Shown here: positions 1,381-3,764 of the stretch, piece by piece | How positions within the stretch are numbered: the first letter of the stretch is position 1 | Layout: each line of letters starts with the position of its first letter | DNA from: an uncultured virus (IMG/VR IMGVR_UViG_3300021256_000067) | Lineage: Duplodnaviria; Heunggongvirae; Uroviricota; Caudoviricetes | Virus record (IMG/VR): IMGVR_UViG_3300021256_000067 | DNA: 20,000 nt | Strand: one strand, 5' to 3' | Position numbers and translations under genes: made by a program | The notes under the pieces: model-generated | Told to the model about the DNA's origin: nothing | Databases searched by the model: none | The model's input: only the letters and a program-made list of their open reading frames with translations

Positions 1381-1537
1381 TCGGATAAGGAGGAATTGAA
1401 CCCCCACCCAATATGATTATGCTTCTATGACTGCGCGGTCACTTGTTGAAACATCAGCATATCGTCTTCAGTATTCCGCGCTTTTATTCCCGAAGCTCCC
1501 ACCCCTTGTGGGTGCGCTACCGTTGCGCTATTATCCG
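1381..1537 (-). ncRNA. tRNA-Pro-like RNA with ~90 nt variable-region insert
   Basis: Acceptor cggataa/ttatccg+A, D arm gcgc-aacggta-gcgc, ccca-caAGGgg-tggg, insert with gcttc/gaagc and gcgcgg/ccgcgc stems, T arm ggggg-ttcaatt-cctcc. Confidence 0.7.
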
Positions 1538-1547
1538 TTATTTGTGC

Positions 1548-1681
1548 TTGATATGTCATCGTGCTAACCGTTACACTAAGGAGTCGAACCAATCTTATGA
1601 CACAATCAAGCACTTTGATATGTCATCGTGCTAACCGTTACACTAAGGAGTCGAACCAATCTTATGACACAATCAAGCACT
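1548..1681. repeat. Exact 67-bp tandem duplication of a permuted tRNA-elbow-like element
   Basis: ttgatatgtcatcgtgctaaccgttacactaaggagtcgaaccaatcttatgacacaatcaagcact at 1548-1614 and 1615-1681. Confidence 0.95.
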
Positions 1682-1844
1682 TACTAAAAATGACCCAATA
1701 CAAATTTGCAACTTCACATTGTTGTTTGCTGAACGTGCTTCTTTGTCACCTTTACACCTTCCATCACCGCTATGTATTTAGTAGTCTCGAACTGTCGCGA
1801 CCAGTCACGAGTAAATACCCCCTTTCAACAATGTCATTTCTTTG

Positions 1845-1916
1845 TGGCGGAGGAGGGAATCGAACCCCCGACCTTCAGGTTATGAGCCTGACGAGCTACC
1901 GCTGCTCCACTCCGCA
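1845..1916 (-). tRNA. tRNA-fMet(CAT)
   Basis: 1:72 mismatch (T/C), TGGAGCAGCGGTAGCTCG initiator-type D arm, tcagg-ctCATaa-cctga. Confidence 0.9.
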
Positions 1917-2205
1917 ATATATAGCCAAGATTTTGCGCAATCTGGATACCTATCTTGGGGTTCCATGACGTCACCTCTGAAGTGGGTCTCTCTCCATCGC
2001 CTAAACAGTGCGCTACGTCAGCATCCAATATCTTGGCTTTTGTAAAAAAGTTCAATCCTCTGCAGATGGAGTGTTCTGATGAATGATTTGCACGTTCTTT
2101 CATCCTTTCAGGACAGCTTTACTATATAAGCTAATCAGACACTCACGAACTGAACTCTATGTATAAAATTGAAATCCCTATAGGTAAATGCAAACCATCA
2201 CACAC

Positions 2206-2302
2206 AGTCAATGAATGGGAGTCGAACCCATAGTCTCTGAACGTTACAGTGGTGATACCGATGCGCCTAACCACTGACTGATGAACAATCATTCACATTG
2301 AT
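2206..2302 (-). ncRNA. Atypical tRNA-like RNA
   Basis: tcaatg/cattga acceptor-like stem and T arm atggg-ttcgact-cccat; the D and anticodon arms are replaced by other hairpins (cagtgg...ccactg). Confidence 0.5.
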
Positions 2303-2315
2303 TTCAACTTTATTG

Positions 2316-2389
2316 TACTGCCAGCGGGGTATGATCCCGCAATCTCCGCCGTGAAAGGGCGACGAGTTAGCCAATTACTCCATGGCAGC
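2316..2389 (-). tRNA. tRNA-Glu(TTC) copy 1, T-loop ATCATAC
   Basis: gctgcca/tggcagt; tcgcc-ctTTCac-ggcgg. Confidence 0.88.
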
Positions 2390-2394
2390 ATTTG

Positions 2395-2443
2395 CGGTGC
2401 GTACGTGACTCGAACCAATCTTTTCATATTAATCAAACGCACC
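2395..2443 (-). pseudogene. Truncated tRNA-like remnant (acceptor + T-loop)
   Basis: Perfect ggtgcgt/acgcacc stem enclosing GGTTCGAGTC; no D or anticodon arm. Confidence 0.5.
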
Positions 2444-2448
2444 AATTG

Positions 2449-2522
2449 TACTTCGGCTGGGATTCAAACCCAGGACCCACAGCTTAGAAGGCTGTTGCTC
2501 TATTCATCTGAGCTACCGAAGC
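2449..2522 (-). tRNA. tRNA-Arg(TCT) copy 1
   Basis: gcttcgg/ccgaagt; acagc-ctTCTaa-gctgt. Confidence 0.95.
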
Positions 2523-2697
2523 AAATAAACACAGGAATGGACTAGCCAAACACACCTATAGGCGTAACCCACCAACATCCTGTGTTGTCGCAGCGAGATT
2601 ATGTACATCACGTCTGCCGCTGTTTCTCCCACTTGCTCCTGAGAAACATAGCCAAACCTTGGAGTGGAGTTTCTGAAAATCTCCCAACCGTATGTAG

Positions 2698-2734
2698 TGG
2701 TCGTGATAGGGTTTGAACCTACGACCTCTTGATT
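2698..2734 (-). pseudogene. 3' tRNA half (Ile2-like) forming the intron 3' exon
   Basis: aatcaagaggtcgtaggttcaaaccctatcacgacca; 5 differences from the 3' part of the CAT tRNA at 5648-5721. Confidence 0.75.
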
Positions 2735-3204
2735 CTTACCACACTATGTTACCATAGCCAACCTAATATTGCCTCTCCTGACAGGCACTTTACACTGGCG
2801 GTCAACTCCAGAAACCTCCTTTTCACAAAGGTATAGGTTGTTGTGGTCTAGACTGTTTACCATATTGAAATTCTTGCAAGATTGAGGTTGTTTCGTATAA
2901 ATTCCTCCAACGTTAATTTTTCGAAGATTCGGAATTACTCATTTTCAACTCAAATTTCAACTTAGGTATCACTCATTCAGTCTACACGATTATAATGAAT
3001 AATGTCAGGTATGGAACAATTCCTTCCCACAGAATATTCAATATATTATCTGATTCATTATATTCGCTCGGTGTTGTCCTTACACATTATTGGTTAGTGT
3101 GCAAAGTGTTATGCTCTTATCATTCTTTACGATGATTCAAAGGATTTCCACCGAATTTGGGTGATTCTACTATGGGATTTCTCGCCATAGCACTCTTTAT
3201 AAAA
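2735..3204 (-). mobile_element. Group I intron (IC3/Azoarcus tRNA-Ile type), core apparently degenerate, no ORF
   Basis: Minus strand shows IGS GTG, P2 ctatgg/ccatag, P AAATTCGGTGGAAA, Q GGACAACACCGAGC, R GTGTAGACTG..GAGTGAT-ACCTAAG, S TATGGTAAACAGTC, P9 accac/gtggt, and terminal G before AATC; same order and similar motifs to the Azoarcus pre-tRNA-Ile intron. Confidence 0.8.
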
Positions 3205-3236
3205 ATGTAACACTCTTCCAACTGAATTACGAAGTC
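3205..3236 (-). pseudogene. 5' tRNA half (Lys-like) forming the intron 5' exon
   Basis: gacttcgtaattcagttggaagagtgttacat; 4 differences from the 5' part of tRNA-Lys at 1111-1183. Confidence 0.75.
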
Positions 3237-3243
3237 AAATCAG

Positions 3244-3316
3244 TGGATCCAGTGAGACTCGAACTCACGGTCTCCTGCGTGCAAGGCAGGCGCTTTTCCA
3301 ACTAAGCTATGAACCC
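3244..3316 (-). tRNA. tRNA-Ala(TGC)
   Basis: G3:U70 pair, cctgc-ctTGCac-gcagg. Confidence 0.95.
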
Positions 3317-3344
3317 ATCAACTGGCAGTGTTGATAAAAAATTG

Positions 3345-3418
3345 TCGAGAACGTATGATTCGAACATCTCCTCCTCATCCCAAATGAGGTATGCTAACCG
3401 GGTTACACCACGTTCTCG
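3345..3418 (-). tRNA. tRNA-Pro(TGG)
   Basis: cgagaac/gttctcg; cctca-ttTGGga-tgagg; imperfect T stem. Confidence 0.85.
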
Positions 3419-3618
3419 TGGCGCCGCCTAACTTATATTTTTACATTTAGTATATATCCTAAACACTGGGGCCGTGCGGCATGTTCCCAAGTACTATGGA
3501 AAGCTTCTCCCCATCTAATGGCCAATTAGAGTCTCAGTAGTTGCGGTCGAAGACGCTAAAACTTGGCAAGGGTTATGATCCTTTGTAGATTACCTAATCT
3601 CACCCTATATAATCTTTG

Positions 3619-3764
3619 TCGGTAAAGATGGAATCGAACCATCACTGCTATAAATATAAAACATTCAACATTCTATATAAATAACACCTTTGTACCTTAA
3701 GACGTCATTATAGTACAAAACCTCCCAGACCAATATGGGTATGCTACCTTTACACCATTTACCA
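3619..3764 (-). ncRNA. tRNA-Pro-like RNA with ~75 nt two-hairpin variable-region insert
   Basis: tggtaaa/tttaccg+A, D arm tggtgtaaaggtagcat, ccca-tatTGGtc-tggg (8-nt loop), hairpins tttgtac/gtacaaa and tgttat..atagca, T arm gatgg-ttcgatt-ccatc. Confidence 0.7.

What the first reader, a model, noticed from the sequence alone, without database searches (positions are those of the whole stretch)
1381..3764. Two tRNA-Pro-like RNAs with giant structured variable regions and defective anticodon loops
Seen: 1381-1537 and 3619-3764 each keep a 7-bp Pro-type acceptor (..CCG-A 3' strand), a D arm and a canonical T arm. Both have a 4-bp ccca/tggg anticodon stem followed by AG, with odd loops (caAGGgg; tatTGGtc). 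Both carry 75-90 nt hairpin inserts in the variable region, unrelated to each other in sequence. A normal tRNA-Pro is also present. Inference: a class of tRNA-scaffolded RNAs (cargo display, ProRS or ribosome decoys, or non-canonical introns) rather than random decay.
Basis: partly seen in the sequence, partly recalled or inferred. Interest (0 to 1): 0.7.

Follow-up and report, generated by a model that had tools for sequence, protein, structure and literature searches.

The report
Codon-blind phage tRNA mimics with hairpins
A giant gut phage carries two conserved genes for tRNA-shaped RNAs that have proline-type ends, broken codon-reading loops and two extra hairpins; the hairpin tips are predicted to pair with each other, and the RNAs likely act as decoys for tRNA-attacking host enzymes rather than in translation.

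Summary
Confirmed and extended. 1381-1537 (A) and 3619-3764 (B), both on the minus strand of a Lak-like phage tRNA cluster, are five-armed cloverleaves. Each has an intact tRNA core and two extra hairpins in the variable region. Each has a relative in another phage (A: L006; B: L191/L199) with compensatory changes in acceptor, D, T and insert stems. Models of A and B find each other first, so they are one family although the inserts share no sequence. B is unchanged in a related strain whose spacer differs at 6 of 53 sites. All four members keep G72/A73, but anticodon loops are 5-7 nt with no shared anticodon, and B's body is glutamine-like. New feature: B-type hairpin 1 carries a palindrome that changed on both sides (GACGUC/CACGUG); A-type hairpins 1 and 2 have complementary loops. 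Decay and introns are disfavoured. Best guess: a codon-blind, self-associating tRNA decoy (0.3); expression as a discrete RNA is untested. Not found in print in 10 searches. This scan noted similar giant-armed, self-pairing tRNA mimics of other identities on other DNA.

The parts
1381..1537 (-). RNA A: 157-nt five-armed tRNA mimic (C1-G72, A73; C74 encoded at 1380)
   Evidence: homologue L006:1365-1523
1498..1512 (-). A anticodon arm: 5-bp stem, 5-nt loop AAGGG (1503-1507), no U33
   Evidence: sequence
1466..1495 (-). A hairpin 1: 6-bp stem, 18-nt loop holding GCGCG (1477-1481)
   Evidence: loop differs at 1 of 18 sites in L006
1409..1464 (-). A hairpin 2: 7+7-bp stem, internal loop, 4-bp tip whose loop CGCGC (1433-1437) is complementary to the hairpin 1 loop
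   Evidence: C to U change in L006 keeps a G.U pair
3619..3764 (-). RNA B: 146-nt five-armed tRNA mimic (U1.G72, A73; C74 encoded at 3618), 2 nt behind tRNA-Asp
   Evidence: homologue L191:394-513 and L199; unchanged in run X2
3724..3739 (-). B anticodon arm: 4 bp plus U.C mismatch, 6-nt loop AUUGGU (3729-3734)
   Evidence: sequence
3688..3720 (-). B hairpin 1: 9-bp stem (3 pairs changed on both sides in L191), loop with palindrome GACGUC at 3701-3706
3646..3686 (-). B hairpin 2: long AU-rich stem; only a 4-bp GAAA hairpin in L191
3344..3418 (-). Canonical tRNA-Pro(UGG) of the same cluster (context)
1545..1679 (-). Two tandem 67-nt hairpins enclosing a T-loop and then a D-arm sequence, directly upstream of A; one copy also precedes A's homologue in L006 (linked companion, role unknown)
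362..390 (-). Terminator-like hairpin closing the minus-strand tRNA cluster
   Evidence: consensus scan only; 4 sites found against a mean of 4.2 in shuffles

Best explanation
A and B are two members of a conserved phage family of five-armed tRNA-shaped genes with proline-type acceptor ends and irregular anticodon loops; they are likely cut out of the tRNA-cluster transcript as stable RNAs, likely cannot read codons, are predicted to pair through their hairpin loops into dimers or a locked compact form, and would most likely serve as multivalent decoys for host enzymes that attack or sense tRNA. Shown: the fold, its conservation, the kept tertiary-core bases (U8, A14, A15:U48, G18G19, A21, G53-U54-U55-C56, A58 in 4 of 4), G72/A73, the lack of a shared anticodon, and the loop complementarity. 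Inferred: RNase P and 3' trimming plus CCA addition (about 0.85); no decoding (about 0.8); loop-loop pairing in the cell (about 0.6, better supported for B than for A); charging by host ProRS through G72/A73 and a GG run shifted in the loop (about 0.35); the decoy role, shielding the phage's working tRNAs from anticodon nucleases or tRNA-modifying toxins (about 0.3).
For: Covariation: A/L006 97 of 98 cells paired, 5 of 49 pairs changed on both sides; B/L191 66 of 66 cells paired, 7 of 33 pairs changed on both sides, 3 of them in hairpin 1. One family: the A model scores B 55.8 bits against at most 23.5 for the window's tRNAs and L191 49.8; the B model scores A 54.9 and L006 51. Selection: 0 of 146 changes in B against 6 of 53 in the spacer in run X2 (Fisher p 0.0003). 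Core bases and encoded C74 kept in 4 of 4. Loop sizes 5, 6, 6, 7 with no common anticodon. B-type palindrome changed on both sides; 1.5% and 2.0% of loop shuffles hold a GC-rich 6-nt palindrome; dimer gain -15.5 and -15.1 kcal/mol reached by 0 of 60 loop shuffles each. A-type loops complementary: 0.03% and 0.6% of shuffles pair as well. Precedents: phage tRNAs counter tRNA-cutting defences (PMC11555353, abstract); irregular tRNAs can be charged through a triplet shifted to 35-37 yet not translate, and five-stem inactive forms lie near toxin-antitoxin genes (PMC5389517, section 16).
Against: Only four distinct sequences, so each covariation rests on one pair; the loop tests were chosen after seeing the motifs. 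The A-type kissing helix shows only one one-sided change, and A's dimer gain (-12.9) lies within that of the 16 ordinary tRNAs (-7.1 to -13.5) and does not depend on loop order in a model that cannot score kissing. L191 alone folds weakly (z -1.20) and its minimum-energy fold loses the D, anticodon and T arms. A differs at 14 sites with 2 gaps over 1380-1559 in run X2, places not shown. No discrete RNA, end or charging was observed. The published anti-defence cases use working tRNAs that replace cut ones, not decoys. A Spinach insert in the V-loop does not stop translation (PMC5397188, discussion), so the insert alone does not exclude decoding. No defence gene or partner protein is linked to the genes.
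Confidence: 0.3

Rival explanations
1. The tRNA body is only a processing and stability chassis; the hairpins are the working part, a folded or oligomeric platform for a phage or host protein, or a virion or packaging RNA in the manner of phi29 pRNA (loop-loop rings; recalled).
For: The hairpin 1 loop is the best-kept variable part (17 of 18 bases A/L006); complementary loops suit rings or dimers; V-loop fusions are stable in cells (PMC5397188, discussion); oversize scaffolds with other interiors occur in Lak and other large phages.
Against: G72/A73 is kept even as a U1.G72 wobble in both B-type members, which a mere chassis does not need; the family occurs in apparently different phage groups with no shared neighbour protein seen.
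Confidence: 0.25
2. A translation saboteur or regulator: the RNA binds ProRS, EF-Tu or the ribosomal A site without decoding, and so drains proline charging or tunes the stringent response.
For: Proline determinants G72 and A73 (PMC9976931, passages) in 4 of 4 and a GG run in every loop; 12-bp acceptor/T branch intact.
Against: The phage keeps its own tRNA-Pro and needs proline itself (896 proline codons in its long ORFs); a drain would hurt it. G15:C48 of E. coli tRNA-Pro is A15:U48 here.
Confidence: 0.15
3. A dedicated aminoacyl carrier that donates proline or glutamine to a non-ribosomal reaction.
For: Codon-blind but acceptor-intact, as expected of such carriers; B-type body is glutamine-like and L191 lies 5 nt behind tRNA-Gln in an isotype-sorted cluster.
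Against: No class II synthetase domain in the 28%-complete own record; no transferase seen beside any member; not found in 151 host-order genomes or by pattern in the genome collection (0 members among 19 hits).
Confidence: 0.12
4. Working tRNAs that decode in an unusual way (frameshifting or shifted-register reading).
For: L191 has a 7-nt loop with UUG in register; large V-loop inserts are tolerated by ribosomes (PMC5397188, discussion).
Against: Loops of 5 and 6 nt in three of four members, A at position 33 in L191, and no anticodon shared even within a pair.
Confidence: 0.1
5. Pre-tRNAs whose insert is a non-canonical intron.
For: Lak phages have unexplained tRNA introns (10.1101/356790, passages); ARAGORN with relaxed settings forces intron calls on both; G014 encodes RtcB.
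Against: The Lak introns in the part of Table S6 that I read sit in the anticodon loop at position 37-41 and most hold a nested T-loop-like sequence; here the insert is 3' of the anticodon arm. Removal leaves a broken loop. No joint in RNA-library contigs across B (contigs drop rare forms). The forced calls name Ile and Leu, matching neither acceptor.
Confidence: 0.05
6. Decayed tRNA genes with chance insertions.
For: The cluster holds several other irregular tRNA-like pieces.
Against: Compensatory changes in every arm but A's anticodon stem; 0 of 146 changes in B.
Confidence: 0.03

Closest known systems
Canonical bacterial/phage tRNA-Pro and tRNA-Gln (Rfam RF00005)
   Same: 7/5 acceptor-T branch, D arm, tertiary-core bases; G72/A73 as in tRNA-Pro; D arm and U1 of B as in Bacteroidales tRNA-Gln.
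   Different: 145-157 nt, two variable hairpins, anticodon loop of 5-7 nt with no conserved anticodon; no Rfam match to A or B in the window scan, though L006's copy scores 38.2 bits when searched alone.
Translation-inactive allo-tRNAs and irregular polycistronic tRNAs (Mukai et al., PMC5389517)
   Same: Extra stems (five-stem junctions), no translation, charging through a triplet shifted to 35-37, link to conflict systems proposed.
   Different: Those have 8/4 or 9/3 branches and Ser or His marks and lie in Acidobacteria; these are 7/5, proline-ended, phage-borne and carry self-pairing loops.
Lak megaphage oversize pseudo-tRNAs and tRNA introns (Devoto et al., PMC6784885, 10.1101/356790)
   Same: Related phages; oversize tRNA-shaped genes in tRNA clusters; two Lak 'Pseudo/Undet' genes have short anticodon loops and long variable hairpins and score 31-34 bits with the B model.
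   Different: Listed only as pseudo-tRNAs or anticodon-loop introns; no G72/A73 end or two-hairpin paired-loop layout; Lak-B1 and Lak-C1 have no true member.
YrlA Y RNAs (Chen et al., PMC4201824)
   Same: Non-decoding tRNA mimics in bacteria and phages, substrates of tRNA enzymes.
   Different: YrlA has T before D and lies beside Ro60; A and B have normal arm order and no TROVE gene was found in G000 or G001 (both incomplete).
T4 RNA C and RNA D
   Same: Small RNAs of unknown role made from a phage tRNA region (PMC3014915, one passage).
   Different: No match of A or B to T4-type records in the phage collection; structures were not compared.
HIV-1 dimer initiation site and phi29 pRNA (recalled, no call)
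   Same: A 6-nt palindrome on a hairpin loop, or two complementary loops, drives dimers or rings.
   Different: Works-like only; no tRNA body there and no shared ancestry implied.

Membership tests
Decoding tRNA (RF00005) | 7-bp acceptor, D arm, T arm and tertiary-core bases | tested here: met
   4 of 4 members
Decoding tRNA (RF00005) | 7-nt anticodon loop with U33 and a conserved anticodon | tested here: not met
   loops 5, 6, 6, 7 nt; the one 7-nt loop has A33; no shared anticodon
Decoding tRNA (RF00005) | Variable region of at most one arm | tested here: not met
   two hairpins, 47-88 nt
tRNA-Pro identity | G72 and A73 | tested here: met
   4 of 4; determinants from PMC9976931. 67 of 91 G72/A73 tRNAs in my loci are Pro, a set biased by my CCRA search patterns
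tRNA-Pro identity | G35, G36, G37 in register; G15:C48 | tested here: inconclusive
   a GG run in every loop but in differing registers; A15:U48 instead of G15:C48
tRNA-Pro identity | Charged with proline | not testable with these tools
   needs acid gel or in vitro assay
tRNA-Gln identity (B type) | U1-A72 and YUG anticodon | tested here: not met
   U1 and UUG-G present, but position 72 is G in both members and 33 is A; body nearest Gln by small margins
Lak-type tRNA intron | Insert in the anticodon loop, mostly with a nested T-loop-like sequence | tested here: not met
   insert lies 3' of the anticodon arm, no inner T arm
Intron-containing pre-tRNA (any kind) | Spliced form exists | tested here: inconclusive
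   no joint in RNA-library contigs over B; contigs cannot show absence; A not covered by RNA contigs
YrlA Y RNA | T arm before D arm; adjacent Ro60 gene | tested here: not met
   normal arm order; TROVE in 0 of 2 member records searched
allo-tRNA | 8/4 or 9/3 acceptor branch | tested here: not met
   7/5 in all four
tmRNA | G3.U70 acceptor and tag reading frame | tested here: not met
   G3-C70 in all four; the record's tmRNA lies elsewhere

The most novel reading that the evidence does not exclude
Large gut phages have built a family of codon-blind tRNA mimics that assemble through kissing loops into dimers or rings, displaying several tRNA elbows and proline-type CCA ends at once as an RNA-only anti-defence or translation-control particle, with interchangeable ways of self-pairing (palindrome in B, two complementary loops in A).
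Probability: 0.2. Interest if true: 0.85.

Novelty: new variant of a known kind. Interest (0 to 1): 0.62.

Why it matters
Phage tRNA clusters are thought to supply spare tRNAs against host tRNA-cutting defences, and their odd members are filed as pseudogenes or introns. These genes show that some are selected, non-decoding RNAs with their own architecture, shared between apparently different phage groups. If they oligomerise and act as decoys, that adds an RNA-only counter-defence strategy. It also gives a short, testable model for the long-unexplained stable RNAs of phage tRNA regions, such as T4 RNA C and D, and a natural example of a tRNA carrying two cargo hairpins.

Tried and rejected
Searches that found no further member: BLAST of A, B, the span between them and L191 against 50,697 phage records gave only tRNA-arm or short matches. 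A tight pattern gave 0 viral loci and the neck protein alone 0 loci. Searches returned 8, 7, 6, 120, 24 and 6 loci, of which only L006 (again as L029, L031, L038, L113, L194, L227), L191 (L225) and L199 (L229) are members; the A model was run on 99 of the 120 loci, the script on all 120. Genome collection: 0 hits, then 19 hits with 0 members. Lak-like and other records: no new member in 10 records with the A model (3 further loci were not held), 5 more, and 15 with the B model; none in 8 stretches of 6 GenBank phage records. Host order: 3 of 151 genomes rang, all ordinary tRNA-Gln; only up to 20 candidates per genome were scored. RNA libraries: contigs of X3 and X17 cover B, but contigs cannot show level, ends or strand and I had no call left for a silent-stretch control; the same-sample RNA run X9 covers other parts of the cluster but neither A nor B, and X3 does not cover A; X4 laid nothing. 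Rejected readings: an alternative fold of A with an anticodon-loop intron (out of register in L006); a kissing pair between B's two hairpins (mostly wobble pairs, and hairpin 2 is only 4 bp in L191); TAG recoding in this record (coding cover 84% with code 11, 86% with code 15); sigma-70 promoter sites (18 found, 16.3 expected). No complex or structure prediction was run, as no protein partner is known.
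Full report
Setting. The window is the end of a 126-kb virus record estimated 28% complete. Its neck-like protein at 6796-7533 is 39-41% identical to those of Prevotella Lak megaphages. The best public holders of the tRNA cluster are gut metagenomes, including a sheep gut DNA run that I laid on it. The record reads with code 11. The minus strand of about 480-6020 holds 16 standard tRNA genes, a group I-like intron and several irregular tRNA-like pieces. Two copies of the Bacteroidota promoter motif TAnnTTTG (motif recalled) lie in repeated spacers at 5871 and 5378.

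Observation. A (1381-1537) and B (3619-3764) fold as full cloverleaves with two extra hairpins between the anticodon and T arms (z -3.31 and -2.17). A descriptor finds them and one tandem-tRNA false hit, against 0 hits in 200 shuffles. Rfam gives no match at either place. In standard numbering A has a 5-bp anticodon stem and 5-nt loop; B has 4 bp, a U.C mismatch and a 6-nt loop.

Homologues. A pattern for the T arm and acceptor end returned 8 viral loci, one of which (L006, record G001) is a full homologue of A. A D-arm pattern returned 24 loci, two of which (L191, L199; records G014, G015, identical element) are homologues of B. Across A/L006, 97 of 98 cells pair and 5 of 49 pairs changed on both sides (16 of 500 shuffles as high); across B/L191, 66 of 66 cells pair and 7 of 33 pairs changed on both sides (2 of 500). 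Slid structures pair only 37-53%. The tool warns that these shuffle counts are not probabilities, and each rests on two sequences. The model built from A and L006 ranks B at 55.8 bits above all window tRNAs (at most 23.5) and L191 at 49.8. The model built from B and L191 ranks A at 54.9 and L006 at 51, next best 42.5 for a tandem tRNA pair. So A and B are one structural family with unrelated insert sequences. G001 looks crAss-like by one protein and has a CUA suppressor tRNA; G014 is a fragment with 55 tRNA matches, TyrRS and RtcB; the Lak-type neck protein was not found in G001, G014 or G015, all incomplete. The family therefore seems to cross phage groups, but this rests on fragments. It was not found in Lak-B1 or Lak-C1, in 151 genomes of the order of a Rikenellaceae genome, or by pattern in the genome collection.

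Selection and RNA. In run X2 one contig spans 3566-3800 with 6 differences, all in the spacer 3579-3605 and none in B (0 of 146 against 6 of 53, Fisher p 0.0003). Contigs from two RNA libraries cover B fully (X3) or in part (X17) with no listed difference in B and no joint; 4 and 1 of their differences are not placed. They run on into the flanks, so they may be precursor RNA or DNA. For A, X2 has a contig over 1380-1559 with 14 differences and 2 gaps, places not shown. No discrete RNA was shown.

Identity. All four members keep U8, A14, the A15:U48 pair, G18G19, A21, the T loop, G72, A73 and an encoded C74, like the cluster's tRNAs, none of which encodes a full CCA. G72 and A73 are bacterial proline determinants, with G35-G37 (PMC9976931, passages). 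The loops are AAGGG, UUAGGU, AUUGGU and AAUUGGG: a GG run in each, but no common anticodon. The B type has U1.G72, a D arm like that of Bacteroidales tRNA-Gln (the only host matches of its model), UUG in register in L191 with A33, and L191 lies 5 nt behind tRNA-Gln and about 1.1 kb before three tRNA-Pro genes in an isotype-sorted cluster. Nearest-isotype margins are small. The fair label is a proline-type end on a mixed Pro/Gln body. Irregular tRNAs that are charged through a triplet at 35-37 and do not translate are known (PMC5389517, section 16), which fits UGG at 35-37 in L191.

Loops. In B and L191 hairpin 1 has a long loop starting AUAAUG and centred on a palindrome, GACGUC and CACGUG: both outer bases changed together. 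About 1.5% and 2.0% of loop shuffles hold such a palindrome, and 0 of 60 loop shuffles give as strong a dimer in either; the isolated B loop's self-duplex was matched by 11% of shuffles. Hairpin 2 shrinks to 4 bp in L191, so the partner is likely a second molecule. In A and L006 the hairpin 1 loop GCGCG is complementary to the hairpin 2 tip (CGCGC, UGCGC), reached by 0.03% and 0.6% of shuffles, with one G-C to G.U change. A's computed dimer gain is no larger than that of ordinary tRNAs. These tests were made after seeing the motifs.

Mechanism. I commit to a stable, CCA-ended, codon-blind tRNA mimic that self-associates and acts as a multivalent decoy for host tRNA-attacking or tRNA-sensing enzymes (0.3). 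The structure, conservation and loss of decoding features are shown; processing, pairing in the cell, charging and the target are inferred. Phage tRNAs are known to counter retron-Eco7 and PrrC (PMC11555353, abstract), though as working replacements. Rivals are a chassis for a protein-binding or virion RNA (0.25), a ProRS, EF-Tu or ribosome saboteur (0.15), a non-ribosomal carrier (0.12), unusual decoding (0.10; V-loop inserts are tolerated, PMC5397188, abstract and discussion), an intron (0.05) and decay (0.03).

Known and new. Devoto et al. list oversize Lak pseudo-tRNAs and anticodon-loop introns (10.1101/356790, passages; PMC6784885, supplement 3 searched and part 4 of 8 read; its main supplementary PDF could not be read and may bear on this). 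Two Lak pseudo-tRNAs have short anticodon loops and long variable hairpins but other acceptor ends. YrlA (PMC4201824, passages), allo-tRNAs (PMC5389517, passages and section 16) and T4 RNA C/D (PMC3014915, one passage) are the nearest described kinds; membership fails for the first two and was not tested structurally for the third. PMC9693318 (passages) adds nothing specific. Ten literature searches, six of them aimed at such RNAs, showed no description of this family; the library lacks most subscription papers. HIV-1 DIS and phi29 pRNA are recalled analogies only. Earlier notes of this scan describe giant-armed phage tRNA mimics with aspartate, leucine, glutamate and other marks, some with self-pairing tips; none matches A or B by sequence. 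I had noted the palindrome before reading them and did not test their claims.

Verdict. A real, selected, apparently undescribed family of phage tRNA mimics; new variant of a known kind; interest 0.62, limited by four sequences and no direct RNA or functional data.

Noticed in passing
window 1545-1612 and 1612-1679 (-); L006:1293-1360 (+): Tandem 67-nt hairpins whose loop holds a T-loop sequence followed by a D-arm sequence (permuted order as in Y RNAs, but without an acceptor-like stem). One copy with a changed but still paired stem precedes A's homologue. No Ro60 gene found in either record. A contig of RNA run X9 covers 1548-1644.
   Followed up: partly
window 2698-3236 (-): Group I-like intron between a Lys-like 5' half and an Ile2-like 3' half whose acceptor strands do not pair; in L006 the related intron sits between matching halves.
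   Followed up: partly
window 4654-4738, 4257-4326, 2199-2280, 2395-2445, 2586-2624 (-): Further irregular tRNA-like pieces: odd D and anticodon arms, a T arm behind one long stem, and minihelix-like hairpins.
   Followed up: no
L002:1454-1523: 70-nt tRNA-shaped gene with C1-G72/A73, a D loop like A's and a shortened anticodon arm but no insert; 33.1 bits with the A model. Possibly an insert-free relative.
   Followed up: partly
L122:1428-1632, L130, L134: 160-200-nt multi-hairpin tRNA scaffolds ending CCG-A in other phages; not members by model score.
   Followed up: no
L169:1231 and L170:1826 (Lak-B1, Lak-C1); L176:8029, 8151; L177:9072, 9186; L257:23957: Other oversize tRNA scaffolds in megaphages: a conserved 235-nt form, two 103-126-nt forms with short anticodon loops, and a 138-nt form in LR756501.1.
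   Followed up: no
L209:14239-18545 and L210 (record G014): Isotype-sorted cluster of about 55 tRNA genes with several elements that have a T arm but a recurring non-standard 5' part in place of the D arm; TyrRS, RtcB and tmRNA nearby.
   Followed up: no
L006:1527-1640: Long stem enclosing three small hairpins, one with a T-loop sequence, directly behind A's homologue.
   Followed up: no
L198:395-510: One acceptor-like stem enclosing two successive D-arm/T-loop units.
   Followed up: no
window 3880-4305 and 5022-5207: Intergenic stretches with deep contigs in RNA libraries X3 and X17; possible further non-coding RNAs.
   Followed up: no
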